NCBI GenBank assembly: GCA_030148045.1
Contig: JASBUE010000068.1
Location: 1-54,557 of the forward strand
From: Candidatus Tenderia sp.
GTDB taxonomy: Bacteria; Pseudomonadota; Gammaproteobacteria; Tenderiales; Tenderiaceae
DNA: 54,557 nt
Direction of reading: 5' to 3'
Shown here piece after piece: positions 560-48,389 of the stretch. The notes below the pieces were generated by a model. It did not search any database. It was not told where the DNA came from and worked only from the letters and a program-made list of their open reading frames with translations. Position 1 is the stretch's first letter. Every line of letters begins with the position of its first letter. The position numbers and the translations under genes are program-made.

Positions 560-3016
560 GTGATCGTGCGCCCCATCGATGCTGAACCACTTGCCAGGCT
601 GCGGCTCAAGATCGGCGGCATGCAGTGTTCATTCTGCGTGGCCTCGGTGGAGAAGGCACTGACGCAGCTTGACGGTGTCGAGCGCGCCAGCGTGAGCCTG
701 GCCCACGAAGAGGCCCTGATCTACCACGACCCGGCCAAGGTATCCGCAGAGCCCATCCGCGATACGCTGCGCAGCCTGGGCTACACCGTGCGTGATCCGC
801 GCAAGGTGCGTAGCTTCGAGGAAGAGGAGACGGAGCTGCGCCGCCACCGCGGCCGGCTGCTGGCGGCGGCGGGGGTGATGCTGCTCTCGCTGGGATTCAT
901 GACCGCCATGTGGCTCGGGCTGCATCGACCTTGGTTCCCGTGGGTGATGTTGGCGTTGGCCTTGGCGATGATCTTCGGTATCGGCTGGCCCATCCTGAAA
1001 ATGGCCGCCGCCTCGCTCATGCGCGGCATCCTGAATCAGCACGTGCTCATGGAGTTCGCCGCCTTCGGCGGGCTGGCCGGCGGACTGGTCGGTTTCTTCA
1101 AGCAACCCTGGCCGATGGCGGACTTCCTGGGTACGGCGGTTTTCATCACCGCTTACCATATCCTCTCGGGGTACGTGTCCCTGCTGGTGCGCACGCGCAG
1201 TTCCCAGGCGATCCGCAAGCTGATGAGCCTGCAGCCGGCCACGGCGCGGGTGGTGCGCGACGGGCACGAGCAAGAGATCCCGGTCGAGGAGGTGAGGGCG
1301 GGCGATCGCGTACGTATCCGGCCCGGCGAGAGCATCCCCGTGGATGGTGAGGTGGTCGGGGGCGCCTCGGCGGTGGACGAGAGCCTGGTCACGGGAGAAT
1401 TCATGCCCGTGGACAAGGCGCTGGGCGATACGGTCATCGGCGGCTCGGTCAACCGGGGTGGCACGTTGCTGGTGCGTACCACCCGCATCGGCGAAGAGAG
1501 CTTTCTGCAGCAAGTGGCCCGCTCCATCGAGCAGGCCCGCGCCCTGAAACCCGGCATCCTGCAACTCGTCGATCGGGTCCTGAAATACTTCGTGCCGGGT
1601 GTGCTCATCACTGCGGCCGGGGCCTTTGTGATCTGGACCCTCGGCGCCTGGCTGATAACCGGCGAAGCCGATCTCAGCCGTGCGGTGTATGCCACGCTGG
1701 CGGCGCTGGTGATGGGGTATCCCTGCGCATTGGGCATGGCGGCGCCGCTGGCCATGATCCGTGGCGGCGGCATGGCGGCACAAAAAGGCATCCTGATGCG
1801 CTCCGGCGCGGCGTTCCAGGTCTTCAAGGATGTCAGGAAGGTGGTGCTCGACAAGACCGGCACCCTGACCTTAGGGCAACCGCAGGTCGCGGAAGTGGTG
1901 GCGAGTAATGGCTCGAACACATCGGAGGTCCTGGCGCTGGCTGCCGCGGTGGAGCGCCTTTCTGAGCATCCGCTGGCCCGCGCCATCGTCAATCATGCCG
2001 ACGCGATTGGTGTGGAACGGCATGAGGCCGAGGCCTTCGAGGCCCTGCCGGGACACGGGGTCCTGGCCCGGGTCGGCGGACAGGCCGTGTGGGTCGGCAG
2101 CCCCCGTTTCCTGCCCGCCGCGCGCGCCGATGTCGCCACCATGCAGGATAGCGTCGGTCGGCTCGAGAAGCCGGGCGCCACCGTCGTCGCCGTCACCCGC
2201 GAGGATCGCGTGGTAGGACTGATCGCCATCACAGACACCCTGAAGCCGGATGCCCGTGAGGCCATCGCCCGTATGAAGGCGGCGGGGCTTACGCCGGTGA
2301 TGATCAGCGGCGACAACGCAAGAACGGCGCGCGCTGTGGCTGCGCAGGTCGGCATAGACGAGGTCATGGCCCAGGTGCTGCCGGAGGACAAGGCCGCCGA
2401 GGTGCGCCGCCTGCAGCAAACGGGCTGCCGCGTAGCCATGGTGGGCGACGGCATTAACGATGCCCCCGCATTGACCCAGGCCGATGTGGGCATCGCCATT
2501 GGCGCCGGCACCGACATCGCCATCGAGACCGCCGATATCGTGCTGGTGGGCGAGCGCCTGGGCGGCGTGGTGGATGCCTACGAGATCGGCAAAGCCAGCT
2601 TCCGCAAAACCGTGCAGAACGTCATCCTGGCATTCGCCTTCAACGGCATTGGCGTGCCGGCGGCGGTTACCGGCCTGGTGCATCCGGTGATGGCCATGGT
2701 GGCCATGGCCGCCAGCGTGACCGCGGTGTTGCTGAACTCCTTCGCTGGACGGCTGCTGCTAACGTGGGGCAAGGTAAAAGATCAAGAGACAAAAAGACTT
2801 GTGCTGAAAGTGCCCACGATGCACTGTGAGGGGTGCCTGGCGCAGATCCGTGAGGCGCTGGCCGGGCTCCGGGGTGTCAAAAATATCGAAGGCAGGCTTG
2901 CGGAAAAGACGATTACCATGGAGGTCGAGGGGCGGGCGCCGGGGCGGGAGCAGTTGTGCGGGATACTTGCCCGGATCGGCCATCTATGTGGCGATACCGG
3001 CGTGTCGGGTGACTAA
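560..3016 (+). CDS. Heavy-metal P1B-type ATPase with N- and C-terminal HMA domains and an atypical YPC transmembrane motif
   Basis: DKTGTLT, SEHPLA and GDGINDAP motifs. HMA motifs GMQCSFC (N-terminal) and TMHCEGC (C-terminal). Four TM helices precede the actuator domain. Start is GTG at 560 or 566. Confidence 0.9.
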   Translation: MIVRPIDAEPLARLRLKIGGMQCSFCVASVEKALTQLDGVERASVSLAHEEALIYHDPAKVSAEPIRDTLRSLGYTVRDPRKVRSFEEEETELRRHRGRLLAAAGVMLLSLGFMTAMWLGLHRPWFPWVMLALALAMIFGIGWPILKMAAASLMRGILNQHVLMEFAAFGGLAGGLVGFFKQPWPMADFLGTAVFITAYHILSGYVSLLVRTRSSQAIRKLMSLQPATARVVRDGHEQEIPVEEVRAGDRVRIRPGESIPVDGEVVGGASAVDESLVTGEFMPVDKALGDTVIGGSVNRGGTLLVRTTRIGEESFLQQVARSIEQARALKPGILQLVDRVLKYFVPGVLITAAGAFVIWTLGAWLITGEADLSRAVYATLAALVMGYPCALGMAAPLAMIRGGGMAAQKGILMRSGAAFQVFKDVRKVVLDKTGTLTLGQPQVAEVVASNGSNTSEVLALAAAVERLSEHPLARAIVNHADAIGVERHEAEAFEALPGHGVLARVGGQAVWVGSPRFLPAARADVATMQDSVGRLEKPGATVVAVTREDRVVGLIAITDTLKPDAREAIARMKAAGLTPVMISGDNARTARAVAAQVGIDEVMAQVLPEDKAAEVRRLQQTGCRVAMVGDGINDAPALTQADVGIAIGAGTDIAIETADIVLVGERLGGVVDAYEIGKASFRKTVQNVILAFAFNGIGVPAAVTGLVHPVMAMVAMAASVTAVLLNSFAGRLLLTWGKVKDQETKRLVLKVPTMHCEGCLAQIREALAGLRGVKNIEGRLAEKTITMEVEGRAPGREQLCGILARIGHLCGDTGVSGD

Positions 3017-3065
3017 CGCACACATTGGTATATTGGCACCGCATGCCAGATGCAGGAGATAACGG

Positions 3066-3281
3066 ATGAAGAAAGAAGGCCTTTCAACCCTGATCGTCTT
3101 CAAGGTGATTTGCTGTGCCGCGCTGCTGCTTTTCGCTTTTGGCGGTCTGGGGCTGCTGTCCGGCCTGAGTACCGGAAATAGCATTCTCATCGTGTTGGGC
3201 CTGGGGCTATTGGGATGGGGCGGATACATCTATTATTACAGGAGGCGGCACCGGCGTGGCTCGCGGAATGGTGAACCGTAG
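3066..3281 (+). CDS. Small two-TM membrane protein with a vicinal Cys pair (MerF/MerT-like architecture)
   Basis: 71 aa. TM1 contains VICCAALLL, followed by a second Gly/Leu-rich TM and a basic tail RRRHRR. It lies between the ATPase and the thioredoxin-like gene. Confidence 0.5.
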   Translation: MKKEGLSTLIVFKVICCAALLLFAFGGLGLLSGLSTGNSILIVLGLGLLGWGGYIYYYRRRHRRGSRNGEP

Positions 3282-3358
3282 ATCGTGTTTCCGATTGTGC
3301 GTGAGCCAGTTATTCGAATGCAGGGTTGGACGGGGCCGGTTAATAGAAGATACAGGCT

Positions 3359-3655
3359 GTGATAAAAATTGAAGTGTTTGCCTCGCCGGGTTGCCGGCGT
3401 TGTCTGGGTGCCGTGCGGAGCGTAGAGAAGATCGCACAGGAGATCGGCGCTGAACGGGTTGAATGGCGCCGGGTCGATGTGCTCGAAGAGATCGACTATG
3501 CAGTTGAACTGGGCGTGTTGGCGACACCGGCAATCGCCATTGATGGCGCTCTCGTGTTTACGGCATCGCCGTCCGAAAAAGCCTTACGTGAAGCTATTGC
3601 AAGTCATCTGGCGGCAACCCTTGGAGAACAACAGTCAGTAGGTCGGGAGCAATGA
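3359..3655 (+). CDS. Small thioredoxin-fold protein (single CxxC, Thioredoxin_3-like)
   Basis: MIKIEVFASPGCRRC... and ...TPAIAIDG... match the ~80-100 aa archaeal/bacterial mini-thioredoxin pattern. GTG start. Its stop overlaps the merR-family start (ATGA). Confidence 0.7.
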   Translation: MIKIEVFASPGCRRCLGAVRSVEKIAQEIGAERVEWRRVDVLEEIDYAVELGVLATPAIAIDGALVFTASPSEKALREAIASHLAATLGEQQSVGREQ

Positions 3656-4083
3656 ACGCATACCGGATAGGACAAGTCACCGAGATGTTGGGCTTGAGCC
3701 CGGACACCTTGCGCTATTACGAAAGACTGGGGCTGCTTCCCGGAGTCGTACGCACGGGCTCCGGCATCCGCCGTTACAGCGGGCGCGACATCTCCCGGCT
3801 GCGTTTCATCCAGCGCGCCCAGCAAATGAACTTCAGCCTGAAAGAGATTGGTGAGCTACTGAAGATGCGGGAGAATCCACAGGGCGCCCGCGATGAGATG
3901 CGCCACTTGACGGCCAACAAATTGGCGGAGATAGAGGCGCGCCTTGCCGACCTCGATACCCTGCGCAAGGAGCTTCGGCTGTTGCTGAATCTATGCCGGG
4001 CGAGTGAAAACGGTTGTCCGATTATCGAGGGTATTGGTAACAAAACCGCCAAGAAGAAGGCTTCCCGCATGCGTAGGCGATAA
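3652..4083 (+). CDS. MerR-family metal-responsive transcriptional regulator (CueR/HmrR-like)
   Basis: N-terminal HTH: YRIGQVTEMLGLSPDTLRYYERLGLL. A coiled-coil dimerisation helix follows, then a C-terminal metal loop C-RASENG-C. Confidence 0.85.
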   Translation: MNAYRIGQVTEMLGLSPDTLRYYERLGLLPGVVRTGSGIRRYSGRDISRLRFIQRAQQMNFSLKEIGELLKMRENPQGARDEMRHLTANKLAEIEARLADLDTLRKELRLLLNLCRASENGCPIIEGIGNKTAKKKASRMRRR

Positions 4084-4224: not shown

Positions 4225-4767
4225 TCATTGTGACGACGAATCCTCCGCCAATGCCAGGCGCTGGCGGAACACCTCGTAGCTGATGGGGGTGGTGTTCTCG
4301 TAGCCGATGCGCCGGCGGCGCCTCTCATCCAGCAGGTGATAGCGTACCACCGCCTCGACGGCCGCGGCGCGACTTTCGCGGAACGCCAAGCTATAGCGGC
4401 GCGGCTCGCCGTAGGGCAGGCGGGTGTCCCACAGATCGACGATGAAGGGTCGCCACAGCACCGTGCGCCGCAGGGTGTGGGTCTGTTCCTCAAGGACCTG
4501 TCCCGCTGCATCGAGCAGGCGCAGCGCCACGGTCAGGTAGCGGTCCGGTGTACCGGTGGGCAGATAGTGGGCGGCGCCGGTGTTGGTCAGCGTCAGGACG
4601 GCGCGCCGGCGGTCCGAATCATCCGGCGACGTCGCTTCGAATCGGATCGTGAGCCCCCGTTTCACCATCGCCGGGTCGTGGCCGCCGCGCCACAGGTGGC
4701 GGCGCGCGGGGCGTACCTCGCCACCCGCCACCAGCGGCCGCTCCACCCGCGGCATGTGGCAGTCCAC
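4225..4767 (-). CDS. C-terminal continuation of the multiheme cytochrome (begins VDCHMP directly after the in-frame TGA)
   Basis: Same reading frame as 4768..5475 with a single TGA between them. It has no independent SD. The junction reads G-L-G-TGA-V-D-C-H-M-P, a CXXCH with the first Cys codon replaced by TGA. Confidence 0.7.
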   Translation of the reverse strand: MDCHMPRVERPLVAGGEVRPARRHLWRGGHDPAMVKRGLTIRFEATSPDDSDRRRAVLTLTNTGAAHYLPTGTPDRYLTVALRLLDAAGQVLEEQTHTLRRTVLWRPFIVDLWDTRLPYGEPRRYSLAFRESRAAAVEAVVRYHLLDERRRRRIGYENTTPISYEVFRQRLALAEDSSSQ

Positions 4768-5475
4768 TCAGCCGAGGCCCGCAATCTCTTCCACCCGGAT
4801 CTCCCCTGTACGCCCGCCGAGAAAGAGGGGTTGGCCGCGGCTGGGTTCTCTCTGGTCGGTGCCCCGGCTGATCTCGGCTACCGTGCCGCAGGGTGGCATC
4901 TTGTAAAATGTGTCCCAGCGCTCCCCTTGCACCACGTGGCAGCGCACGCAGACCTGGTTGGGGTCGGCCAGCTTTTGCACCGGGTGCGGTGCGGTGTCCA
5001 GCCCGAAAGGGCCGAGGATGGCGCCGTCGCGAAAGTGGCAGGCGGCGCAGGTCACCCCCTCGTGCTGCAGCCGGGGGTCGAAGTCCGGGTTGGGCGCCAG
5101 GACGGGGTCCCACTTGGCGCGGTCGCGAAAGCCCAGCACGCGGTATTCCTGCTGACGGTCCAGCGGGGTGTGGCAGTTCTTGCAAATCTGCTGCTCGTCG
5201 TCATAGCGCCAGTCGGCCTGGAAATAGGGGTCGGTCCAGGCCTGACTGTGGATGGCGGTGGACCACTCATCATAGAAGTCCCGGTGACAGGCGGCGCATT
5301 CTTGCGCGCTCAGCGTCTTGAACATGGCGGGTGCAGCGCGGGTGTCGATGGGGCGCTCGAAGGCCTTGGTGACGACGAAGATGTTCATCGGACGCACGAA
5401 ACGCCAGCCCACGAACACGGCCAGTGCGATGAGGGTAATGGTGACAACGAGTGTCTTACGCCGTACCCTCATCAT
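4768..5475 (-). CDS. Multiheme c-type cytochrome, N-terminal part (signal anchor + 4 CXXCH), ending at an in-frame TGA
   Basis: Motifs CAACH, CKNCH, CAACH, CVRCH. N-terminal TM/signal TLVVTITLIALAVFVGW. SD GGAGG upstream of ATGATG. Same frame as 4225..4767. Confidence 0.85.
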   Translation of the reverse strand: MMRVRRKTLVVTITLIALAVFVGWRFVRPMNIFVVTKAFERPIDTRAAPAMFKTLSAQECAACHRDFYDEWSTAIHSQAWTDPYFQADWRYDDEQQICKNCHTPLDRQQEYRVLGFRDRAKWDPVLAPNPDFDPRLQHEGVTCAACHFRDGAILGPFGLDTAPHPVQKLADPNQVCVRCHVVQGERWDTFYKMPPCGTVAEISRGTDQREPSRGQPLFLGGRTGEIRVEEIAGLG

Positions 5476-8176: not shown

Positions 8177-8311
8177 AGTAGATGCCGGGTGTGCTCTGCG
8201 CACCCATATACGTCGTAAATAAATAGATAGCCAGCCACTTAGCCTTCGGGCAAAGGTAGCCAGCCAATAGTGTTGTTTTGGTGTGGGCGCTTTTTTGCGG
8301 AGGTTTTTTAT

Positions 8312-10318
8312 ATGCCTGTTGTGCGTGGGCATGGCTTAACGTGGCTGGTGAATACACTCCTGCTATTTCCGCTTGGGATGGCGGCGGGGTTGGCCAACGG
8401 GGCGGCCGAGCTGGACAAGATAGTGGTTACCGGCACCCGCACGGAAAAGTCCGTGGCGGAGGTGCCGGTACGCACCGAAGTGGTCGATCGCGAAGAGATC
8501 GAAAAGACCCATGCCCGCGATCTCAAGGAGGCGCTGGAGGACGCGCCCGGTCTGCTGCTCAAGCCCAACCGAAAAAGCGGCTTTGTAGCCTGGTTGCAGG
8601 GGCTGGATTCCGACCGGGTGCTGGTGATCATCGACGGTGAACCCATCAGCCCCAGCACCGGCTCCTCGGTCGATCTCAGCCAGATCGGCACGGCCCTTAT
8701 CGAGCGCATCGAGATCGTCAAGGGCGCCACCTCGGCCCTCTATGGCAGCAATGCCATGGGGGGTGTCATCAATGTTATCACCCGCAAGCCGGACCGGCCG
8801 CTGGGCTACCAGTTGAGTCTCGATGGCGGCAGCTATGGCAATAAAAACCTTAGCGGAGATGCTAATGAATTTGCCGCCCGCTCCTTATCGGCCAATCTTG
8901 CGCTCGAGCAGCCCGCTTGGTATGCCCAGTTCAACGCCAGCCTACGCGACAAGGATGGTTATGACCTCGATCCAAGCACCTTCCGTTCGGAAGGTGCGGA
9001 AGGCTCCAAGACCAATCTCGATCTGCGCCTGGCCTGGACGCCTGATGACAGCACTGAAATCTATATTGCGCCGCGCTATTACCGGGACGATATCAACAAC
9101 AATATTTCGAGCTTTGCCCCCGGTACCGGCGAAATCAAACAGAAGAGGAACGAAGACGCTGAACGTTCCGGCGCCACGCTGGGTTTTGAACAGAAACTGG
9201 ACGATGGCGGACGGTTGCGTGGCTGGCTGTTGCAGGAGAACTGGCGTGACGTCACCCAGCAGGACGCCATCGCAACAAAGGAGGTAGAGCAACAACGCAC
9301 GGCGGAAATCGATCTCTATCGCGCCGAGCTGCAATGGGATGAACCGTGGGGGGATAACCAGATCGTCACCTCTGGCCTGTTACTCGGCCAGGAGACACTG
9401 GACCAATACCAGGATCGGGTCGGACAGGCACGCGCCATCGAGGTGGATGCCAAGAAAAAACGCAATATCGAAGCCTATCTGCAGGATGACATTTTCCTTG
9501 GCGAACGGTGGGAAATTGTCCCCGGTATCCGTATCCAGGAGGATAGCGATTTCGGTTTTTACACCGCGCCCAAGATCAACGCCATGTATACCCCGGATTG
9601 GGTCGGCAGCGTCACCACCAATATACGTATGGGTGTTGGCCGCGGCTACCGCGTGCCCAATCTTAAAGAACGCTTTTTTGTCTTCGATCACAGCCAGCTG
9701 GGCTACATGGTATTGGGCAATAACGAGCTTGAGCCTGAGAGTTCCGACAGCTACCAGCTTGGCATTGAATTCATGCGGCCGGATGAATTCCGTGCCGAAG
9801 TCCAGTTGTTTCACAACCGTATCAAAAACCTCATTGATACCAATCTAAACCCCGAGAAATCGGCACAGACGGGGCTACGCATTTTCGACTACCAGAATTT
9901 CGCCCGGGCTATGACTCAGGGGATGGAGGTCAACGGAAACCTCCGGCTGGGACGTTTTGACATGAAGGCCGGTTACACCCTGCTCGACAGCGAAGATCTC
10001 GATACGGGAAAAATGCTCAGGGAGCGTCCTCGCCATCAAATCAAGCTGGGGGTTGATTACGAGCACGAAGCATGGGGCACCCTGCTGAGCCTGCGCGGTG
10101 TTTATCAGAGTGAAGAGTTTATTGACGCCGAGAACGTATTGGAATCGCCCGCCTGGACCACTTGGGACGTAAAACTGACCCAGCGGCTGATCGGGGGCCT
10201 TTCCGTCTTTGCCGGTATCGACAATCTTACCGACGAACACCGCGATCCCAATGTCTTCAGCGATTTCCGTCCCCCGGCGGGCCGCTTCGTCTACCTGGGG
10301 GTGCGTGTTGATGGTTGA
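8312..10318 (+). CDS. TonB-dependent outer-membrane receptor (heme/iron type)
   Basis: Signal peptide, then TonB-box/plug DKIVVTGTRTEKSVAEVPVRTEVV. Plug motifs IEIVKGATSALYGSNAMGGVINVIT. C-terminal barrel ending ...GRFVYLGVRVDG. The ORF opens at 8270; ATG 8312 has an SD. Confidence 0.9.
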   Translation: MPVVRGHGLTWLVNTLLLFPLGMAAGLANGAAELDKIVVTGTRTEKSVAEVPVRTEVVDREEIEKTHARDLKEALEDAPGLLLKPNRKSGFVAWLQGLDSDRVLVIIDGEPISPSTGSSVDLSQIGTALIERIEIVKGATSALYGSNAMGGVINVITRKPDRPLGYQLSLDGGSYGNKNLSGDANEFAARSLSANLALEQPAWYAQFNASLRDKDGYDLDPSTFRSEGAEGSKTNLDLRLAWTPDDSTEIYIAPRYYRDDINNNISSFAPGTGEIKQKRNEDAERSGATLGFEQKLDDGGRLRGWLLQENWRDVTQQDAIATKEVEQQRTAEIDLYRAELQWDEPWGDNQIVTSGLLLGQETLDQYQDRVGQARAIEVDAKKKRNIEAYLQDDIFLGERWEIVPGIRIQEDSDFGFYTAPKINAMYTPDWVGSVTTNIRMGVGRGYRVPNLKERFFVFDHSQLGYMVLGNNELEPESSDSYQLGIEFMRPDEFRAEVQLFHNRIKNLIDTNLNPEKSAQTGLRIFDYQNFARAMTQGMEVNGNLRLGRFDMKAGYTLLDSEDLDTGKMLRERPRHQIKLGVDYEHEAWGTLLSLRGVYQSEEFIDAENVLESPAWTTWDVKLTQRLIGGLSVFAGIDNLTDEHRDPNVFSDFRPPAGRFVYLGVRVDG

Positions 10319-10386
10319 GAGGGTCCCTGTTTTTATTGTTCCGCATAAAGCAGCTTTTTGTTAATTCACTAACGGAGGTTATAGCG

Positions 10387-10620
10387 ATGAAGGTATCCAG
10401 GAAACAAACCGCAATCGCGGTTTCGATAGTAACGATTGGCTCCGCGGCCCTGCTTACCACCGGTGTATACACCGGCCTTTTGTGGGAAGGAGGCCGGGGC
10501 ATGCATCTGATCGACACCTCGGCTAATGGGCGCGAACCGGAGCTTGACAGCGACAACGTGATGCAGGATCCGGGTGGTCTTGGTGTTGAGTATTCCGACA
10601 TTGTCAATATGGGGGGTTAA
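10387..10620 (+). CDS. Hypothetical small membrane-anchored protein
   Basis: SD GGAGG 8 nt upstream of ATG 10387. One TM (IAVSIVTIGSAALLTTGVYTGLL). Sits between the receptor and the HmuY-like gene. Confidence 0.45.
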   Translation: MKVSRKQTAIAVSIVTIGSAALLTTGVYTGLLWEGGRGMHLIDTSANGREPELDSDNVMQDPGGLGVEYSDIVNMGG

Positions 10621-10623
10621 GCC

Positions 10624-11808
10624 ATGAAAACATATGAACAATCATTGGTGTTACCACTTCTCATGATGTCGGTGCTGGGCGCATTGTCCGGATGTGTCGA
10701 CGGCGGCGGCACCGATACGACAAATGCAAGCAAGGAGTCATCATCTAGCGCCGCGGCGTCGGTTCAGATCGATGCCACGGCGGGCGGGCTCGGCGCCGGT
10801 CCCACTGACCCGAAAAACAAATATACCTACTTCAATCTTGACACCGGACAGGTGGTGAATCTGAGCGATGCAGACGCCACTGCCAGCAGTGCCTGGCATA
10901 TTGCCTTCAAGCGCACCAGTATCAAGCTCAACGGTGGCGTCTCGGGGCCGGGTACGGTGGCGGGAGCTGTCGCCGATGCCCAGGATGATTTTTATGATGC
11001 CGCAACCGGTGATCCCAACCCTTCGGTATTTCTCAACGCTACGGCCGGAAGCGAGCTGGCGGCATTCGATGCTGTTACTAGTGCCGCCGGTCTCACCTTC
11101 GCGGAAGACCGCAATGTTCCCTACATTAAAGGCGATGGCAGCAGCGATGGCTGGTGGCTCTACAGCGGCCCGCCCACGTACACCGTTTCCGCCAATCCGG
11201 ACCAATGGTGGCTGGTGAAGTCTGCGGCGGCGGACAGCTACGCCAAATTCCATGTCACCAATATCGTCCAGGCCAGCCGAGACATCACTCTGGAACTCTT
11301 CATTCAGGGGGCGGGGAACAGTGCGTTTTCAACCACGCCGACCACCTGGACGGCCGCCATTGGTGCCGCCGGCGGCAGCAACTGCTTCGATATCGACGCC
11401 GTCGCGGAAGTGGATTGCACCACGGCGGCGACGGATTGGGATATCAAGGTGGAGGTCAGCGCCGACGGGCGAGACTGGAGTATCTGGACCAACGGCGGTG
11501 TTTCCGGCAGTGGCAACGGAGGCGCCTTCGGTCCGATTGATACTGCTACTATCGGCGGTTATGTCAGCGGTACGTCCAGTCCTGCGGGAACCGATATTAC
11601 GAGATTCTATGGACAGGACAGCGCCGGCGGCGTCTTCAAGGACAACACCTGGTACGCCTACAGTCTCCAGGGTAACAACAAGCTGTGGCCCAATTACCGG
11701 GTCTACGCCATCGATACTGGATCGGTGCAATACAAGCTGCAGATCCTCAGTTACTACAATGATGCGGGCACCAGTGGGTGGATCAAGTTCCGCTACGAGA
11801 GCTTGTAG
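10624..11808 (+). CDS. HmuY-like lipoprotein (putative heme-binding)
   Basis: Lipobox LGALSG-C. YFNLDTGQVV...SSAWHIAFKRTSIKLNGGVSGPG and a second ATDWDIKV...WTNGGVSGSG unit resemble the HmuY family WD(I)AF / NGG pattern. Adjacent to the TonB-dependent receptor. Confidence 0.6.
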   Translation: MKTYEQSLVLPLLMMSVLGALSGCVDGGGTDTTNASKESSSSAAASVQIDATAGGLGAGPTDPKNKYTYFNLDTGQVVNLSDADATASSAWHIAFKRTSIKLNGGVSGPGTVAGAVADAQDDFYDAATGDPNPSVFLNATAGSELAAFDAVTSAAGLTFAEDRNVPYIKGDGSSDGWWLYSGPPTYTVSANPDQWWLVKSAAADSYAKFHVTNIVQASRDITLELFIQGAGNSAFSTTPTTWTAAIGAAGGSNCFDIDAVAEVDCTTAATDWDIKVEVSADGRDWSIWTNGGVSGSGNGGAFGPIDTATIGGYVSGTSSPAGTDITRFYGQDSAGGVFKDNTWYAYSLQGNNKLWPNYRVYAIDTGSVQYKLQILSYYNDAGTSGWIKFRYESL

Positions 11809-11924
11809 ACGATCATGTCCCGGCTTCCCATCTCCTCTAAACGGTCTTTTGTCCTCCACCCTCATCAAGCGCGAAGACCGTTACCAACGTGTGGGATGCC
11901 GGGCTTTTTTATTCATAGGTACAG

Positions 11925-12503
11925 ATGGGGAGCGAAAAAATGAATGCCACACAGACCGAAGTGTTGATACACCAGCTCTCAGGGTTATTGCTGCCGCCAG
12001 TGTTGCTGGCGATCACCCTGCTGTTTTTTTACGCCTTTTTAATGCTAAGCAGTATTTTAAATCAATATCTTCAAAGGAGGCGCAATAATCGCCATTACAT
12101 CCAGGCCGTTCGTTCTCTGGCAGGCAAGGGGCCTGCCATGCGTTTACGTCCGGTAAGAGGATACCCGCTGTTCAGCCATTACCAGGAAAATCCGCATAGG
12201 ACGGCGGACGATCTTGAAATATTTGCTCTCAAAGAATTGGAGAGACCACACATCGTCGCCCGTGTGGCGGTGATGGTGGGGCTGGTGGCCACCGTGATTA
12301 CGATAGCTTGGGTACTTGATGGCTTGTCTGATGGTGATTACCGCGGCATGAGTGAAGACCTCATCGTCGCCTTTGCCGCAGTGATCTTCGGGCTTATCAC
12401 TGTCGCCATCACCCTCTGGGTTGCCAACGTCAAAAAGCATTGGTTTGCCGGTGAGTTGAATGATCTTAAAACGTGTTTGACAAGACAGGAGAAGCGAGTA
12501 TGA
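11925..12503 (+). CDS. Membrane protein, divergent MotA/TolQ/ExbB-like
   Basis: N-terminal TM plus C-terminal paired TMs VGLVATVITIAWVLDGL....LIVAFAAVIFGLITVAITLWVAN resemble the ExbB channel core. The stop overlaps the next start (ATGA). Confidence 0.45.
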   Translation: MGSEKMNATQTEVLIHQLSGLLLPPVLLAITLLFFYAFLMLSSILNQYLQRRRNNRHYIQAVRSLAGKGPAMRLRPVRGYPLFSHYQENPHRTADDLEIFALKELERPHIVARVAVMVGLVATVITIAWVLDGLSDGDYRGMSEDLIVAFAAVIFGLITVAITLWVANVKKHWFAGELNDLKTCLTRQEKRV

Positions 12504-14209
12504 CACAGCCGAGAAAACAAGGTTCTACAACAGCCATCCATTTTGGGATCAGACTTTATTTTTTGTCGTTCGTGATGTTTTTCTTTATGCCTCAGAACGG
12601 GGAGGCCGGGCCGTTGAAGACCGGATTCCTGGTCGTGGCGGCCGACCGGGGTTACCTGGGTAATCAGGAGATCAATGCAGTGATGGAGCAGTTCAGGCAG
12701 ACACACCCCGCCAGTCTGGCCCTGATCGGCGAGAACCGTCAGGGGATCGAGGGCGACTATGTGGAATACGTCCAACGGGCGGTGGCTGAGCTGGAGAAAC
12801 AGGGCGTCGATAACATTGTCGCGATACCGATGTTTCTTTCCGGGGCAGATGCCACGCTCGGCCCGTATCAGCAGAAAATTACGGCGCTAAAAGGACGCGC
12901 CCCGATTCAATGGGCGCCGCCCATGGCGGAAAGCTATCTGACCGCCCAGATCCTGCTTGACAGGGTGGAGGCGCTGAGCGCGGATCCGGCACAGGAGCAC
13001 CTGGTGGTGCTGGGGAGTGGTGCAGTTGATGAAGCCAGTGAACAACGTATCAAAAGTGACCTTGAAAAACTGGTGCAGGAGGTGACTGACCGCCACGAGT
13101 TTCGTGAGGTCGCTATCCATGTCTATTACGATCGTGGCGCCCAGGACCAGGATAAAAAAAACGAAGCCATAGATGAGATGATCATCCGCACCGCCGCCAA
13201 GCGCGGTCGTACGCTGCTCGTCCCTTTCGCCATTGGCGTCAAGTTCGATCAACGTATGTCCATGGAAGGCTGGTTGGGCCGCAAGTTCGGCCAGTTCGAC
13301 ATCGCCATGGGCAAATCCATATTTTCTCATCCCGATGTGCTGACCTGGCTGAAACAGACGGCGAACCGTTATTCCGACGCATCAAAGGAGCAGATCGGCG
13401 TGCTGATCATGCCCCACGGTTCCACCCAGCCATACAACGACGGTCTGGAAAAAGTTATCGCGCCCCTGCGCAAACGCTATCGGATAGAAATGGCGCCGGG
13501 CATGGGTGATCCATTGATCCTGGGCCAGGCCGTGCAGAAGCTCGAGCGAGAGGGGATCACACGGATCATTTTTGTCCGCATGTACGCGTTGCGGGATCAC
13601 ATGAAAGCACGTACCGACTATATTCTAGGTATATCAAAACAGCCGCCCGCCGCTCTTCATGGCGATCTCCCGCCCCGTATCCGCAGCAGTGCGATCTTCG
13701 AGACCTTCGGCGGCTACGAGGAAGACCCGCTCATCGCGAATATCCTTCGGGATCGCCTGATGGAGATCAGTAAACGGCCGCAAGACGAAACCGTCATCCT
13801 GCTTGCCCACGGCAAGATGGATGATGAGGAAAATGAGCGCTGGCTTGATGTCATCAACGCCAATATTGAACGCATCAAGCAGGGACTGGATAGACCATTC
13901 AGAGCCATCAAGGCGATGACCCTGCGCGAGGACTGGTCGGACAAGCGAGAACAGGCCCTGGCTCAGATCAGGGAGGAGATTGAACAGGGAAACCGCAATG
14001 GCGGCCGGGTGTTGATTATCTCCAATCGTCTCTACGGCTCGGGCCCCTATCAACGGCTGCTCGAAGGCGCCGAGTTTGAAATGAACGGCCAGGGCCTCGT
14101 GCCTCACCCCAACATCACCCGCTGGCTGGAGAAAGGAATCGAACAGGCGATACGCACGGCAGGTCTGGCAAGTGATCCCGCCGTCTCCGTCGCCGGCAAT
14201 GCGCGATAG
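12500..14209 (+). CDS. Secreted tandem CbiX/CbiK-type (class II) chelatase-like protein
   Basis: Signal-like N-terminus IRLYFLSFVMFFFMPQNGEA. Four CbiX-like alpha/beta half-domains (GFLVVAADRG..IVAIPMFLSG; HLVVLGSGA..; IGVLIMPHGSTQ..RIIFVRMYAL; VILLAHGKMD..VLIISNRLYG). SD CAGGAG precedes ATG 12500. Confidence 0.65.
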   Translation: MTQPRKQGSTTAIHFGIRLYFLSFVMFFFMPQNGEAGPLKTGFLVVAADRGYLGNQEINAVMEQFRQTHPASLALIGENRQGIEGDYVEYVQRAVAELEKQGVDNIVAIPMFLSGADATLGPYQQKITALKGRAPIQWAPPMAESYLTAQILLDRVEALSADPAQEHLVVLGSGAVDEASEQRIKSDLEKLVQEVTDRHEFREVAIHVYYDRGAQDQDKKNEAIDEMIIRTAAKRGRTLLVPFAIGVKFDQRMSMEGWLGRKFGQFDIAMGKSIFSHPDVLTWLKQTANRYSDASKEQIGVLIMPHGSTQPYNDGLEKVIAPLRKRYRIEMAPGMGDPLILGQAVQKLEREGITRIIFVRMYALRDHMKARTDYILGISKQPPAALHGDLPPRIRSSAIFETFGGYEEDPLIANILRDRLMEISKRPQDETVILLAHGKMDDEENERWLDVINANIERIKQGLDRPFRAIKAMTLREDWSDKREQALAQIREEIEQGNRNGGRVLIISNRLYGSGPYQRLLEGAEFEMNGQGLVPHPNITRWLEKGIEQAIRTAGLASDPAVSVAGNAR

Positions 14210-22998: not shown

Positions 22999-25341
22999 AT
23001 GATTTTTGAACGCCTGAAAAACAGCGAACCCCTGCCGGAACTGACCGAGGTCGCCGAGCTGGGAATGAACACCGATGACCTGGCGGAGGACTTTCGCCGC
23101 CATTTCAGCACCACTTTGGGGCGCGATCGCTTTTGCCGCTCCACCCATTACCCCTACACCGCCCTGGCGCTGGTGTTGCGCGACCGGTTGATGGAGCGCT
23201 GGAAGAACACCCGCTACGCTTATCAGGAGAAAAACACCCGCCGCGCCCATTACCTGTCGCTGGAGTTCTTGATGGGGCGCGCCCTGGGCAACGCCATGCT
23301 CAATCTGGGGGTCACCGATGCCGCCACCGCGGCGCTGGAGCGTTACGGCATCGAACTGGAAGAGATCGCCGAGGCGGAGCACGATGCCGGCCTGGGCAAC
23401 GGCGGTCTGGGACGCTTGGCGGCCTGTTTTCTCGACAGCTGCGCCACCCTGCAGCTGCCGGTGATCGGTTACGGCATTCGTTACGAATACGGCATGTTCC
23501 GTCAGGAGCTCATGAACGGCTACCAGGTGGAGGAGCCGGATCATTGGCTGCGTAACGGCAATCCCTGGGAGCTGGAGCGTCACGAGTTTACCCAGCGTGT
23601 CCACTTCCGTTGGCGTACCGAATTTTATCGCGACGCGCAGGGCGTCATGCGCGTACGCTGGGTCGATACGCAGGATGTGCTAGCGGTGCCTTTTGACGTA
23701 CCTGTGCCGGGTTATCGCAACGGCACGGTGAATACCCTGCGCTTGTGGAGCGCGGCGGCCACCGACGAGTTCAGCCTCGACGAGTTCAACGCCGGCGACT
23801 ATACCGGTTCGGTGGCCAGCAAGAACGACGCCGAGCAGATCACCATGGTGCTCTATCCCAACGACGCCAGCGAAAGCGGCAAGGAGTTGCGCCTGAGGCA
23901 GCAATACTTTCTCGCCGCCGCCAGCCTGCGTGATGTCTTCCGTCGCTGGATCCGCGATCACGGTCGTGACTTCAGTACCTTTGCCGAGAAGAACTGCTTC
24001 CAGCTCAACGATACCCATCCCACCATCGCCATCGCCGAACTGATGCGTCAGTTGATGGACAATCATTGCCTCAGTTGGGAGGAGGCCTGGCGAATTACCG
24101 GCAGCACCGTGGCCTACACCAACCACACCCTGTTGCCCGAGGCGCTGGAGAAATGGCCGGTGCGGGTATTCAAACAACTGTTGCCGCGCCATCTGGAGAT
24201 CATTTATGAAATCAACGCGCGCTTTCTCGGTGAGGTGGCGCGGCGCTGGCCCGGCGATACGGATCGTCTGGCGCGCATGTCCATTATCGAAGAGGGGGAC
24301 GAACCGCAGGTACGCATGGCCTATCTAGCCATTGTCGGCAGCTATTCCGTCAACGGCGTGGCGGCGCTGCATTCCCAGTTGTTACAGGAAGGGCTGTTTC
24401 ATGATTTTTATGAGTTCTGGCCGGAGAAATTCAACAACAAGACCAACGGCGTCACCCAGCGGCGCTGGCTGGCCTGGTGTAATCCGGCACAGAGCGAGTT
24501 GATCAGCGGCACCATCGGCGATGATTGGGTCACCCATCTGGAGCACCTGGAAAAACTCAAACCCTATGCCGAAGACGCCGCTTTCCGTAAACAATGGCGC
24601 GAGGTGAAACGGGCTAACAAGCAGCGCCTGGCCGAACTGGTGAAGAGGGATTGCGGCGTCGATTTCAGCGTCGATGCCATGTTCGATGTGCAGGTCAAGC
24701 GCATGCATGAATACAAACGCCAGTTGCTCAATGTGCTGCACGTGATTCATCTCTACGACCGCATCAAGCGCGGCGATACGGCTAACTGGACACCGCGCTG
24801 CGTACTCATCGGCGGCAAGGCCGCGCCCGGTTATGCCATGGCCAAACGCATCATCAAGCTGATCAACAATGTCGCCTTCATGATCAACAACGATCCGGCG
24901 GTAGGGGATCTGCTCAAGCTTGTGTTTTTGCCGGACTATCGCGTCACCGCCATGGAGATCATCGCGCCGGGCACCGATCTGTCGGAGCAGATCTCCACCG
25001 CCGGCAAGGAGGCCTCGGGGACCGGTAACATGAAGTTCATGATGAACGGTGCCATCACCATCGGCACGCTGGATGGGGCCAATATCGAGATCCGCGAAGA
25101 GGTGGGGGACGACAGCTTCTTTCTCTTCGGGCTGACCGCCCAGGAGGTGGTCGAGGCCCGCCGCGACTATGATCCCAACGCCATCATCCGCGACGACGCC
25201 GACCTGTTGCGGGTGATGAAGCTGATCGAGTGCGGCCACTTCAACCAGTTCGAACCGGGCCTGTTCGATGACATCATTCAGTCCATTCGCAACCCGCAGG
25301 ATCCCTGGCTGGTGGCGGCGGACTTTCGCAGTTTCGTCTAG
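22999..25341 (+). CDS. glgP: Glycogen/maltodextrin phosphorylase, terminated early by an in-frame TAG (conserved tail continues in frame to 25497)
   Basis: HYPYTALALVLRDRL, EAEHDAGLGNGGLGRLAACFLDS and the PLP-site GKEASGTGNMKFMMNGA. After TAG 25339-25341 the same frame encodes [43 protein letters not shown], the canonical phosphorylase C-terminus. Confidence 0.9.
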   Translation: MIFERLKNSEPLPELTEVAELGMNTDDLAEDFRRHFSTTLGRDRFCRSTHYPYTALALVLRDRLMERWKNTRYAYQEKNTRRAHYLSLEFLMGRALGNAMLNLGVTDAATAALERYGIELEEIAEAEHDAGLGNGGLGRLAACFLDSCATLQLPVIGYGIRYEYGMFRQELMNGYQVEEPDHWLRNGNPWELERHEFTQRVHFRWRTEFYRDAQGVMRVRWVDTQDVLAVPFDVPVPGYRNGTVNTLRLWSAAATDEFSLDEFNAGDYTGSVASKNDAEQITMVLYPNDASESGKELRLRQQYFLAAASLRDVFRRWIRDHGRDFSTFAEKNCFQLNDTHPTIAIAELMRQLMDNHCLSWEEAWRITGSTVAYTNHTLLPEALEKWPVRVFKQLLPRHLEIIYEINARFLGEVARRWPGDTDRLARMSIIEEGDEPQVRMAYLAIVGSYSVNGVAALHSQLLQEGLFHDFYEFWPEKFNNKTNGVTQRRWLAWCNPAQSELISGTIGDDWVTHLEHLEKLKPYAEDAAFRKQWREVKRANKQRLAELVKRDCGVDFSVDAMFDVQVKRMHEYKRQLLNVLHVIHLYDRIKRGDTANWTPRCVLIGGKAAPGYAMAKRIIKLINNVAFMINNDPAVGDLLKLVFLPDYRVTAMEIIAPGTDLSEQISTAGKEASGTGNMKFMMNGAITIGTLDGANIEIREEVGDDSFFLFGLTAQEVVEARRDYDPNAIIRDDADLLRVMKLIECGHFNQFEPGLFDDIIQSIRNPQDPWLVAADFRSFV

Positions 25342-25515
25342 GCTCAACGGCGTGTCGCCGAGGCCTATCGCGACGAGGAGCGCTGGACCCGTATGAGCAT
25401 CCTCAATGCCGCCAGCAGCGGCAAGTTCTCCACCGACCGCACCATGCGGGAATACAACGAAGGGATTTGGAAGTTGGAGTCGGTTTCAGTCCGCTAATGC
25501 ACGCAAATTAAGGCT

Positions 25516-25604: not shown

Positions 25605-27679
25605 AGGCTGGTGTGTTTTATTTGCGTGTATTGGCGTTCATTCGCAGACTGTTTGTTCCCTCGGTACCAAGCCGCCCAGCCCAGCTCCTCGGCGCGTTTG
25701 CCCGCCTGGGCCGGCACGTCGGTGGTGACGAAGTGGCGGTGCAGCACCTGGATGCCGATCATGTGGTTGATCACCGCGTCCAGCTGCACCTTGGTGGAGG
25801 CCGTGGTGTCGTCCGCCTCGTGCAGATCAAACACCGCTTTCACGCCGTCCTTGTCCAGCACGCCGGCCGCCTCGATGGCCTGGTCTGACAGATACTCATC
25901 GGCCAGGGCCCTCATGGCATTCCATTTCTTGGGATCGGTGTGGGCCGGCGGCGCCATGAAGGCGAACTTCTCGCGTTCGTACAAGGTCTTGGGCAGGATG
26001 CCCTTCATCGCCTCGCGCAGCACGTATTTTTCGGTGCGGCCCTTGATGCGCAGGGTGGGCGGCAGCCGGGTGGCTGTCTCGGCCAGGTGGTGGTCGAGGA
26101 AGGGCGGGCGTGCTTCCATGGAGTTGGCCATGTCGACCCGGTCGCCGCCCCAGGTGAGGATCTGGCCTTCCAGCATGGTCTTGATCCAGACGTACTGGGC
26201 CTTGTCCAGGGGATGACGCCCTGCCAGCATGTCGCCGTCCAGGGCCTCGGCGATGGCCCTGCCGGGCTCATAGCCCTCGGTCTGCTGGCGCAACTCGGGA
26301 TGCAGCAGGCCGGGCACGTGTTCGGCGGCGGCCAGCCAGGGTTGCAGGCAGCTGGGGGTGAAGCCGACCAGTTCATCCAGGGCCGGGTCGTGGAGTTCGT
26401 TTTCCGCCAGCATGGCGCCCTGGAACAGTTTGTTGCTTTCCGCCAGCAGGGCCTCCCATTCCTTGCGCTCTTGCGGCGGCAGGGTGTCCAGGCCGTGCAG
26501 GAACATGTCGCGGCGGAAGGCGGGGTAGCCGGCGAACAGTTCGTCCGAGCCCTCGCCGGTGACCACCACCTTGTAGCCGGCCTGGTTGACGTGGCGGCTC
26601 ATGAGCAGCTTGGCGACACCCAGGGTATTGTAGATGGTGCGTTCGGTATGCCACAGGGTTTCGACGAAGTTGTCGTAAAGATGGTCGGCCTTGAGGCGCA
26701 TGATGTCCTGGTCGGCGCCGACGGATTCGGCCATCTCGGTGGCGATGGCGCTTTCGTCGTAATCGGCGTCGTCGAAGCCGATGGTGAAGGCCTTCACCGG
26801 CGCTTGCTGGCTGGCGGCGGCCAGGCCCAGGGTGGCGCAGGAGTCGATGCCGCCGGACAGATAACAGGCCACCGGCACGTCGGCATCCAGGAGCAGTTGC
26901 ACCGCCTCGAGCAGTTTTTCGCGGATGGCCTCGATGTAGAACGCTTCCGGCTGCGATTCGTCACGCTCGCCCATGAGCGGGAAGTCCATGTCCCAATACT
27001 TCTCGTCTTTGATCTCGAACCTGCCGTTGTTGCGTTCGATGATCACCACGTGCCCCGGCTTCACCTGGTGAACGCCTTCGAAGGCGGTGGTGCCGGGCAC
27101 GATGGTCTGCATCAACTGGTGATAGACGCCTTGGGCGCTGAAGCGGCGCGGCACCTCGGGATGGGCGAACAGCACCTTAAGCTCCGAGACGAACACCAGG
27201 GTGCCGTTGTGCTCGGTCCAGTAGAGCGGCTTGACGCCGAAGCGATCGCGCACCAGCATCAGGCGGTCGTGTTCGCGATCGTAGAGGGCGAAGGCGTATT
27301 CGCCGCGGCAGGTCTTGAGCATCTCCTCCAGGCCGAAGCGCTCGTAGAGGTGCAGCACCAGTTCCGAGTCGCTCTTGGTTCTGAAACGCGCGCCGCGCGA
27401 GGTCAGATCGGCGCGAATACGCTTATAGTCGTACAGCTCGCCGTTCTGGGTCAGCATCAGCTTGCCGTCGTTGGAGAAGAAGGGCTGGCGGCCGCGGTTC
27501 TCATCCAGGTCGATAATGGACAGCCGGGCGTGGCTGAAGCCGATGCCGCGGTCATTCATGGTCTTGTAGCCGAAGCCGTCCGGGCCGCGATGGTGCTGGA
27601 TGGCGGCCATGTTGACCAGGGTTTGTGGGTCTACCGGCCGGGCCGGGTCTGCATGTAGGTAGCCTGCAATTCCGCACAT
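25592..27679 (-). CDS. Asparagine synthetase-like glutamine amidotransferase (class II, Ntn-Cys)
   Basis: MCGIAGY N-terminus. Synthetase-domain PP-loop YLSGGIDSC. 695 aa, longer than typical AsnB. Confidence 0.85.
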   Translation of the reverse strand: MCGIAGYLHADPARPVDPQTLVNMAAIQHHRGPDGFGYKTMNDRGIGFSHARLSIIDLDENRGRQPFFSNDGKLMLTQNGELYDYKRIRADLTSRGARFRTKSDSELVLHLYERFGLEEMLKTCRGEYAFALYDREHDRLMLVRDRFGVKPLYWTEHNGTLVFVSELKVLFAHPEVPRRFSAQGVYHQLMQTIVPGTTAFEGVHQVKPGHVVIIERNNGRFEIKDEKYWDMDFPLMGERDESQPEAFYIEAIREKLLEAVQLLLDADVPVACYLSGGIDSCATLGLAAASQQAPVKAFTIGFDDADYDESAIATEMAESVGADQDIMRLKADHLYDNFVETLWHTERTIYNTLGVAKLLMSRHVNQAGYKVVVTGEGSDELFAGYPAFRRDMFLHGLDTLPPQERKEWEALLAESNKLFQGAMLAENELHDPALDELVGFTPSCLQPWLAAAEHVPGLLHPELRQQTEGYEPGRAIAEALDGDMLAGRHPLDKAQYVWIKTMLEGQILTWGGDRVDMANSMEARPPFLDHHLAETATRLPPTLRIKGRTEKYVLREAMKGILPKTLYEREKFAFMAPPAHTDPKKWNAMRALADEYLSDQAIEAAGVLDKDGVKAVFDLHEADDTTASTKVQLDAVINHMIGIQVLHRHFVTTDVPAQAGKRAEELGWAAWYRGNKQSANERQYTQIKHTSLPLS

Positions 27680-30489: not shown

Positions 30490-30870
30490 CTAATCGGAGA
30501 AGGCCACGGCCTCCAGCGGCCGCACAACATCGACCTCTTGTTCCTTGAGACAGCGCAGGCACTCCAATCCGGCCACCACGCCCAAGGCGCCGTCCAGTTG
30601 TCCGCCGCCGGGCACCGAATCGATATGGGAACCGGTCATGACGCTGGCCTTGCCCTCGCGCCAATGGAGACGGGCGTGAACATTGGCCGCGCCATCCATA
30701 TAATAGTCCAGCCCGGCGCTCTCGATACGTTGACGCAACCAGTCCCGGGCCTGCATGTCGGCGGCGCTGAAGGCCATGCGGTAGATGCCCTGGTCTTCCG
30801 CCCGGCCGATTTCGGCCAGCGCGGCGAGATCATCGCGCAAACGCTCGGCATTGATTCTGAGGCTGCTCAT
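30490..30870 (-). CDS. M20-family amidohydrolase, N-terminal part ending at an in-frame TAG
   Basis: MSSLRINAERLRDDLAALAEIG...GSHIDSVPGGGQLDGALGV...AVAFSD-TAG. Family members read DEEG here. Confidence 0.8.
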   Translation of the reverse strand: MSSLRINAERLRDDLAALAEIGRAEDQGIYRMAFSAADMQARDWLRQRIESAGLDYYMDGAANVHARLHWREGKASVMTGSHIDSVPGGGQLDGALGVVAGLECLRCLKEQEVDVVRPLEAVAFSD

Positions 30871-39995: not shown

Positions 39996-41633
<1,638 letters not shown>

Positions 41634-44410: not shown

Positions 44411-44478
44411 AACCACGGGGGACACGGGGGCTCGGGGAAATGTGACGGGATTCAAATGCCCCCGTGTCCCCCGTGGTT
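44411..44478. repeat. Perfect 21-bp inverted repeat between glcF and the aminotransferase gene
   Basis: aaccacgggggacacgggggc ... gcccccgtgtcccccgtggtt with a 26-nt loop. The right arm abuts the glcF stop codon. Confidence 0.7.
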
Positions 44479-45689: not shown

Positions 45690-45691
45690 GA

Positions 45692-48231: not shown

Positions 48232-48389
48232 CGACTTCTCGTAATAACTGACTAAATTGGTAGGGTACGCTATCTCACCAGAGATGGGCCCCAAATGCAA
48301 GGCAATACCCGGATATTTTGCCAGTGAATTCGGGCAAAAAAAAAGCCCTCGGCTGGGAGGGCTCCTGTTGATTTCTCGTGGGCCCGGCT

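What the first reader, a model, noticed from the sequence alone, without database searches (positions are those of the whole stretch)
4725..4770. In-frame TGA sits exactly at the first cysteine of a fifth CXXCH heme motif (U-V-D-C-H): selenocysteine candidate or fresh pseudogene
ORFs 4768..5475 and 4225..4767 (minus strand) share one frame and are separated only by TGA (4768-4770). The upstream part carries four CXXCH motifs. Across the junction the text reads ...EIAGLG-TGA-VDCHMPRVE.... The stop therefore occupies the position of the thioether-forming first Cys of a C-V-D-C-H motif. Sec-for-Cys at a functional cysteine is the classic selenoprotein signature. Directly 3' of the UGA the mRNA can fold as CUGCCAC(AU)GCCGC-GGGUGGA-GCGGC(CGCUG)GUGGCGG. 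The lower 7-bp stem starts 6 nt after UGA, and a 5-bp upper stem carries a 7-nt G/U-containing apical loop about 20 nt after UGA. This is roughly where bacterial SECIS loops lie. I am not aware of a described Sec in a heme c attachment motif. The alternatives are a one-step nonsense mutation (TGC or TGT to TGA) or a base-call error. GC-rich sequence forms hairpins readily, so the fold alone is weak evidence.
Basis: partly seen in the sequence, partly recalled or inferred. Interest (0 to 1): 0.65.

Follow-up and report, generated by a model that had tools for sequence, protein, structure and literature searches.

The report
Ordinary premature stop, not selenocysteine
The in-frame TGA in this five-heme cytochrome gene is a one-letter change of a normal cysteine codon (TGC to TGA) found only in this sequence and one thin data set, so it is a broken gene or a sequence error, not a selenocysteine site.

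Summary
A minus-strand gene (5475..4225) for a roughly 416-aa membrane-anchored pentaheme cytochrome c is interrupted by TGA (4770..4768). The TGA sits exactly at the first Cys of the fifth CXXCH, and a stable hairpin follows it.

The selenocysteine reading fails every test I could run:
- All 160 related loci have TGC or TGT at this position; none has TGA.
- Contigs more than 99% identical from three other metagenomes read TGC, with the same downstream sequence. The hairpin therefore predates the TGA, and it is even more stable with TGC.
- A Cys-coding orthologue has the same hairpin.
- The same 54.5-kb contig holds two more in-frame stops in conserved genes (glycogen phosphorylase and an M20 amidohydrolase). 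Both are TAG, and relatives read GAG there.
- These stops belong to an excess of G:C>T:A changes in this sequence: 16 of its 24 private differences.

TGC>TGA is of that same class. The best reading is a recent nonsense allele, with a low-depth sequence error as the close rival. The window holds no Sec machinery. The protein's closest solved relative is the Thermochromatium tepidum pentaheme cytochrome c552 (5ZE8). It is not a member of the MccSep/ExtKL selenoprotein family.

The parts
4225..5475 (-). Gene for a membrane-anchored pentaheme cytochrome c (416 codons if read through), interrupted at codon 236
   Evidence: more than 1200 homologues of about 400 aa, best 70% identity; the closest solved structure is 5ZE8, pentaheme cytochrome c552.
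4768..4770 (-). In-frame TGA replacing the first Cys of the fifth CXXCH (motif 4756-4770). The plus-strand T at 4768 is G (codon TGC) in runs X2, X3 and X8.
   Evidence: 160 of 160 relatives have a Cys codon.
4717..4762 (-). G+C-rich hairpin downstream of the TGA (apical loop 4738-4742). It is also present in the Cys-coding alleles.
   Evidence: -32.4 kcal/mol, z -3.3; TGC allele -36.1; L026, TGC, same shape, -32.1.
4936..5298 (-). Four intact CXXCH heme-attachment motifs (5284-5298, 5170-5184, 5035-5049, 4936-4950)
4537..4539 (-). Codon 313 TAC (Tyr) where X2 and X3 have CAC (His, the family consensus). This is a second protein-altering change in the same gene on the same branch.
25339..25341 (+). 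In-frame TAG in the glycogen phosphorylase gene (22999-25497). X2 reads GAG (Glu).
   Evidence: read-through restores the Pfam match to position 713 of 713.
30490..30492 (-). In-frame TAG in the M20 amidohydrolase gene (29629-30870). X1 and X2 read GAG (Glu).
   Evidence: read-through restores Pfam M20 positions 2-205 of 206.
25667..25669 (-). TGG in asparagine synthase where X1 and X2 have the stop TGA. This stop-loss extends the ORF by 24 codons.

Best explanation
The TGA is an ordinary premature stop made by a single C>A change (G>T on the plus strand) in an ancestral TGC cysteine codon. It is most likely a real, very recent null allele carried by the sub-lineage represented by this contig and by run X1. 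Translation ends after residue 235. That gives a signal-anchored four-heme fragment lacking heme 5 and the conserved C-terminal beta-sandwich domain. The downstream 180-codon ORF has no export signal of its own. The hairpin after the stop is a by-product of the G+C-rich coding sequence for CHMP.VERPLV.GG and plays no recoding role. Shown: the ancestral state is Cys, the TGC allele exists in near-identical strains, the hairpin is shared, and there are other stops of the same mutational class. Inferred: the allele is real rather than an error, and the truncated product is inactive.
For: All related loci encode Cys at this position and none has TGA: 159 of 160 match the CxxCH motif (TGC 90, TGT 69), and L032 has Cys in a CVECY variant. 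Contigs more than 99% identical in X2, X3 and X8 read G at plus-strand 4768, giving TGC, with no other difference in the hairpin region. The TGC allele folds even better (-36.1 against -32.4), and Cys-coding L026 has the same hairpin at -32.1. TGA is the commonest ordinary stop in this contig (19 of 37 gene models) and ends this very gene. Two more in-frame stops in conserved genes are TAG derived from GAG. Of 24 differences private to the window, 16 are G:C>T:A. The 21 coding G:C>T:A changes the window carries split into 3 nonsense, 11 missense and 7 synonymous, against 1.2, 14.2 and 5.6 expected without selection. The TGA is seen in two data sets, the window and X1, which differ from each other at 31 other sites. 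A second change, His313Tyr, lies in the same gene on the same branch, with X1 depth 9.
Against: Support for TGA in X1 is thin: a 156-nt contig of word depth 2.8 flanked by gaps, while neighbouring contigs have depth 8-9. If the window was assembled partly from X1 reads, the two sightings are not independent. Only contigs could be inspected, not raw reads. Three stop-gains and one stop-loss in about 45 genes is many for a healthy free-living cell.
Confidence: 0.55

Rival explanations
1. The TGA is a sequence or assembly error. The organism really has TGC, and the TGA entered the consensus from a few damaged or amplified template molecules at a locally low-depth, 73% G+C spot. It would be one of a series of G>T / C>A errors typical of oxidised guanine (8-oxoG).
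For: G:C>T:A makes up 16 of the 24 window-private differences, against 3 of 27 real inter-strain differences. This is the class of artefact described for oxidative damage during library preparation (PMC3616734). About half of the private coding changes alter the protein, including a stop-gain and a stop-loss. Orientation is blocky along the contig: G>T, then C>A, then G>T (runs test P = 0.035). That pattern fits lesions on a few single template strands. X1 depth at the site is only 2.8. No indexed run holds the window's exact sequence.
Against: Twenty-four consensus errors in 46 kb is far above what about 9x Illumina assemblies normally give. The TGA is also present in X1's independently built contigs. 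Window-private changes are somewhat less often protein-altering (12 of 22 coding) than the 73% expected of random errors. X1's own private G:C>T:A changes are all synonymous or non-coding, so they look real, which shows this class also occurs as true variation here.
Confidence: 0.38
2. The UGA is recoded as selenocysteine, guided by the downstream hairpin acting as a bacterial SECIS. This would give a full-length cytochrome whose fifth heme is attached through a selenoether.
For: The UGA aligns with a functional Cys. A stable hairpin starts 5 nt after it, with its apical loop 25 nt downstream and a G in the second loop position. From my memory of published bacterial SECIS search criteria, that falls within the loose geometry they use. 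Multiheme cytochrome selenoproteins do exist (MccSep/ExtKL, PMC13510729). The allele is shared by two slightly diverged data sets.
Against: None of 160 relatives has TGA. Strains more than 99% identical have TGC with the same hairpin, so the hairpin did not evolve for Sec. A Cys orthologue has the same hairpin. The window has no tRNA-Sec, selA, selB or selD. The other in-frame stops of the contig are TAG. In known Sec proteins the residue is a redox-active catalytic one, whereas this Cys forms a structural thioether. I found no report of Sec in a CXXCH motif.
Confidence: 0.02
3. The gene works as a deliberately split pair: a four-heme N-terminal cytochrome plus a separately translated C-terminal protein started at the GTG directly after the TGA. 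Low-level stop-codon read-through is a variant of this idea.
For: A GTG codon immediately follows the TGA, so translational coupling is conceivable.
Against: The C-terminal piece would carry the rest of a heme motif (VDCH) without its first Cys and without any signal peptide, so it could not reach the periplasmic heme-attachment machinery. No relative is split. No gene with the 235-aa product is on record elsewhere.
Confidence: 0.03

Closest known systems
Pentaheme cytochrome c552 of Thermochromatium tepidum (PDB 5ZE8)
   Same: It has five CXXCH motifs followed by a beta-sandwich domain. The profile match has E 6e-10 and covers the fifth motif (C..CHMP), the GGH stretch and the H..PTG.P motif. 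It is the top fold match, E 1.5e-13 over the full length.
   Different: Sequence identity is only about 18%. The window's family has an N-terminal membrane anchor and its own conserved motifs (HLWRGGHD, NxGAAHYxPTGTPDR). The heme-domain part of the model is of low confidence. The function of neither protein is established by anything I tested.
MccSep / ExtKL multiheme cytochrome c selenoprotein (GSU2937-2936; NF040886; PDB 9WT8; PMC13510729)
   Same: It is a periplasmic five-heme cytochrome with an extra C-terminal domain, encoded with an in-frame UGA that annotators split into two ORFs. A loose motif resemblance exists (HSIPDGUPTPNR there, HYLPTGTPDR here).
   Different: In MccSep the Sec is a catalytic residue in the C-terminal domain, not in a CXXCH motif. 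Its UGA is conserved across hundreds of homologues with SECIS-like hairpins. The window protein scores 20 bits against a family cut-off of 250, and only E 0.12 against the 9WT8 sequence over residues 45-77.
Ordinary nonsense pseudogenes, and G>T / C>A (8-oxoG) sequencing artefacts (PMC3616734)
   Same: It is a single G:C>T:A substitution turning a sense codon into a stop. It is accompanied by other changes of the same class, and near-identical relatives lack it.
   Different: Nothing distinguishes it from these. Which of the two it is needs the raw reads.

Membership tests
Bacterial selenoprotein gene (UGA-Sec with SECIS) | In-frame UGA aligned with Cys (or Sec) of homologues | tested here: met
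   the TGA lies in the Cys column of CxxCHMP.
Bacterial selenoprotein gene (UGA-Sec with SECIS) | UGA recurs at the same position in at least some orthologues | tested here: not met
   0 of 160 loci. Strains more than 99% identical in X2, X3 and X8 have TGC.
Bacterial selenoprotein gene (UGA-Sec with SECIS) | Stem-loop directly 3' of the UGA that goes with the UGA form of the gene | tested here: not met
   A hairpin is present, but it is identical in the TGC alleles, more stable there, and present in Cys orthologue L026.
Bacterial selenoprotein gene (UGA-Sec with SECIS) | selA, selB, selD and tRNA-Sec in the genome | not testable with these tools
   None is in the 54.5-kb contig. The rest of the genome could not be reached.
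Bacterial selenoprotein gene (UGA-Sec with SECIS) | Full-length selenium-containing product | not testable with these tools
   This needs proteomics or 75Se labelling.
MccSep / ExtKL (NF040886) | Score at or above the curated family cut-off | tested here: not met
   20.2 bits against a cut-off of 250.
MccSep / ExtKL (NF040886) | Sec/Cys site in the C-terminal domain (..PDGUP..) | tested here: not met
   The TGA lies in the fifth CXXCH, and the C-terminal motif here reads PTGTP. Whether the two motifs are truly equivalent was not tested.
5ZE8-like pentaheme cytochrome c552 family | Five CXXCH motifs plus a C-terminal beta-sandwich with H..PTG.P, detectable by profile and by fold | tested here: met
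   Profile E 6e-10. Foldseek E 1.5e-13, 427 aligned columns. In the window itself the fifth motif is broken by the TGA.

The most novel reading that the evidence does not exclude
The UGA is read as selenocysteine thanks to a pre-existing hairpin that happens to work as a SECIS. This would be a just-born selenoprotein with a selenoether-linked heme c, the first Sec in a heme-attachment motif.
Probability: 0.02. Interest if true: 0.85.

Novelty: not a real feature. Interest (0 to 1): 0.07.

Why it matters
It removes an attractive but false selenoprotein candidate. An in-frame TGA aligned with a functional Cys, followed by a G+C-rich hairpin, is not enough evidence for Sec in metagenome-derived contigs. 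The quick decisive checks are the allele in near-identical strains, whether Cys-coding relatives have the same hairpin, and whether the same contig carries other stops of the same mutational class. It also flags this contig as carrying an unusual load of G:C>T:A changes, so other oddities in it should be read with care.

Tried and rejected
- An exact-product look-up of the 235-aa fragment found nothing on record.
- An exact DNA pattern covering both alleles found nothing in the JGI metagenome contigs.
- Rfam at gathering thresholds and ARAGORN found only the tmRNA.
- MccSep/ExtKL membership was considered because of the five hemes and a PDGUP-like motif. It was rejected on the family score.
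- The window's neighbours (CopA, MerR, unknown ORFs, TonB receptor) are not conserved next to homologues, so context gives no functional clue.
- I considered a TGA reassignment (genetic codes 4 or 25) and rejected it. TGA ends 19 of 37 gene models, and the other in-frame stops are TAG.
- Own error, corrected: and part, some gene models were trimmed out of frame. That produced a false 'stop in BatD in X1' and wrong synonymous/missense calls. One search supersedes them. The mutation spectrum itself was unaffected.
- The literature search found no report of Sec within CXXCH and nothing on Sec in Tenderia.

Full report
**What is there**

On the minus strand, ORFs 4768..5475 and 4225..4767 share one frame and are separated only by TGA at 4770..4768. 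Read through, the gene encodes 416 residues:
- an N-terminal hydrophobic anchor;
- four CXXCH motifs at residues 60-64, 98-102, 143-147 and 176-180;
- the sequence ...EIAGLG*VDCHMPRVE;
- a 180-residue C-terminal part.

Pfam sees only generic multiheme signatures. More than 1200 homologues of about 400 aa exist, the best at 70% identity. In an alignment of 19 of them, the column of the TGA is Cys of an invariant CxxCHMP motif.

**The protein**

A profile of the family matches the pentaheme cytochrome c552 of Thermochromatium tepidum (5ZE8) at E 6e-10. The alignment covers this fifth heme motif and the downstream GGH and H..PTG.P motifs. An AlphaFold model of a 69%-identical, Cys-bearing homologue was built. 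Its mean pLDDT is 65: the C-terminal beta-sandwich is good, and the heme domain is poor, as expected without hemes. The model finds 5ZE8 as its top fold match at E 1.5e-13 over the full length.

So the position is a true heme-attachment cysteine. The family is not MccSep/ExtKL, the known five-heme selenoprotein. It scores 20 bits against a cut-off of 250. In MccSep the Sec lies in the C-terminal domain (..HSIPDGUPTPNR), not in a CXXCH motif (PMC13510729). By GroEL (96% identity), the contig comes from a relative of Candidatus Tenderia electrophaga, in the Tenderiales order of Gammaproteobacteria.

**Test 1: conservation**

In 80 loci from species-representative genomes and 80 from metagenomes, the homologous codon is TGC (90) or TGT (69). 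The remaining locus (L032) has Cys in a CVECY variant. None has TGA.

**Test 2: near-identical strains**

Contigs of public runs were laid on the window.
- Run X1 (sediment) has the TGA, but only in a 156-nt contig of word depth 2.8. That contig is flanked by uncovered gaps, while neighbouring contigs have depth 8-9.
- Runs X2 (subsurface), X3 (marine) and X8 (soil) hold contigs more than 99% identical that read G at plus-strand 4768, which is TGC = Cys.
- X2 and X3 also read CAC (His, the family consensus) where the window and X1 have TAC (Tyr313).

The TGA is thus derived and strain-level.

**Test 3: the hairpin**

The 60 nt from the UGA fold to -32.4 kcal/mol, with z -3.3 against shuffles. 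This is unusual for the contig: 0.4% of sampled coding windows fold as well, or 2.5% of those with at least 70% G+C.

Even so, the hairpin does not go with the TGA.
- The X2 contig shows no difference in this stretch, so the Cys allele has the same hairpin.
- With TGC, the fold is -36.1 kcal/mol.
- Orthologue L026 (TGC) has the same architecture at -32.1, and several others fold to about -30.
- In a 131-nt context, other pairings win.

The hairpin predates the TGA and is not an adaptation to it.

**Test 4: the rest of the contig**

No tRNA-Sec, SelA, SelB or SelD is encoded in the window. TGA is the commonest normal stop here (19 of 37 models) and ends this same gene.

Two other conserved genes carry in-frame stops, and both are TAG:
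- glycogen phosphorylase at 25339-25341 (..[21 protein letters not shown]..);
- an M20 amidohydrolase at 30492-30490 (..AFSD*EGRFGG..).

Read-through restores full Pfam coverage of both. X2 reads GAG at the first site, and both X1 and X2 read GAG at the second.

**Mutation spectrum**

About 46 kb was compared with X1 and X2.

| Class of difference | Sites | Spectrum | Coding effect |
|---|---|---|---|
| Private to the window | 24 | 16 G:C>T:A | 10 synonymous, 10 missense, 1 stop-gain, 1 stop-loss (asparagine synthase, 25667), 2 non-coding |
| X2 only (true strain divergence) | 27 | 21 transitions, 3 G:C>T:A (one is 4768) | 13 synonymous, 9 missense, 1 nonsense (4768), 4 non-coding |
| Private to X1 | 7 | 6 G:C>T:A | 6 synonymous, 1 non-coding, so they look like real variation |

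In these genes, 5.6% of all possible G:C>T:A changes make stops. The 21 coding changes of this class that the window carries include 3 stops, against 1.2 expected. The probability of 3 or more is about 0.1, so the count is unremarkable for unselected changes. Their orientation along the plus strand is blocky: G>T, then C>A, then G>T (runs test P = 0.035). I cannot explain this with confidence.

One search supersedes the coding-effect part, where I had put some gene models out of frame.

**Interpretation**

TGC>TGA is one more G:C>T:A change in a sequence that has many, some of which break other genes with TAG. It is a premature stop, not a Sec codon.

- I lean towards a real, recent null allele (0.55). 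It appears both in the window and in X1's independently built contigs, and these two data sets differ at 31 other sites. A consensus error rate of 5 per 10 kb would also be extreme.
- An artefact from a few oxidatively damaged template molecules (0.38) remains a serious rival. In its favour are the thin X1 support, the signature (PMC3616734), the blocky orientation, and the fact that no indexed run holds the window's exact sequence.
- Sec recoding keeps about 0.02. The genome-wide Sec machinery could not be examined, and the hairpin loosely fits bacterial SECIS geometry as I remember it.

**Leads that went nowhere**

- There is no record of the 235-aa product elsewhere.
- The JGI contigs hold no exact match to either allele.
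- Gene neighbourhood is not conserved.
- I found no literature on Sec in a CXXCH motif or on Sec in Tenderia.

Noticed in passing
window 25339-25341 (+): In-frame TAG in the glycogen phosphorylase gene (22999-25497). The conserved C-terminal 51 codons continue in frame. Near-identical run X2 reads GAG.
   Followed up: yes
window 30490-30492 (-): In-frame TAG in an M20-family amidohydrolase gene (29629-30870). X1 and X2 read GAG.
   Followed up: yes
window 25667-25669 (-): Asparagine synthase has TGG where X1 and X2 have the stop TGA. The window's ORF is 24 codons longer (stop-loss).
   Followed up: partly
window 1-50900, 24 sites: Differences private to the window are 67% G:C>T:A. On the plus strand they fall in blocks: G>T up to about 25 kb, C>A from 26.9 to 36.6 kb, G>T from 43.2 to 46.7 kb (runs test P = 0.035). 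Possible causes are a mutator-like or damage burst, or amplification from few damaged templates. This is unexplained.
   Followed up: partly
window 4225-5475 and 30200-30800, runs X1-X29: Contigs more than 99% identical to this contig turn up at low depth in sediment, subsurface, marine, aquatic and soil metagenomes of unrelated studies. That is an odd spread for one strain. Wide dispersal or cross-run carry-over are both possible.
   Followed up: no
L032 (Sedimenticola selenatireducens DSM 17993), fifth heme motif: This orthologue reads CVECY instead of CVECH: the axial His of the fifth heme motif is replaced by Tyr. It is the only such case among 160 loci.
   Followed up: no
window 4537-4569 (-), residues 303-313: The invariant motif AHYxPTGTPDR of the C-terminal domain resembles HAMPTGAPFRN of 5ZE8. 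It resembles more loosely the Sec site HSIPDGUPTPNR of MccSep. A distant relationship of the C-terminal domains is possible but was not tested.
   Followed up: no
window 49974-50336 (-): tmRNA gene (tag ANEDNYALAA). The window has G at 50044 where X1 and X2 have T.
   Followed up: no
window 560-4083 and 8270-14209: A CopA-type P-type ATPase with a MerR/CueR-type regulator lies next to the cytochrome gene. On the other side lies a TonB-dependent receptor, HmuY and ExbB-like cluster, probably for heme or metal uptake.
   Followed up: no
window 15888-22727 (-), 33061-33555 (+), 44478-48300 (-): A MoxR-DUF58-DUF4381-VWA-VWA/TPR-BatD operon, a small SoxA/TsdA-type cytochrome c, and a glcDEF-like glycolate oxidase cluster. 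All appear intact.
   Followed up: no
window 39999-41633 (+): GroEL is 96% identical to that of Candidatus Tenderia electrophaga. The database lists the window's own contig as 54,557 bp, so the window is a whole contig.
   Followed up: partly
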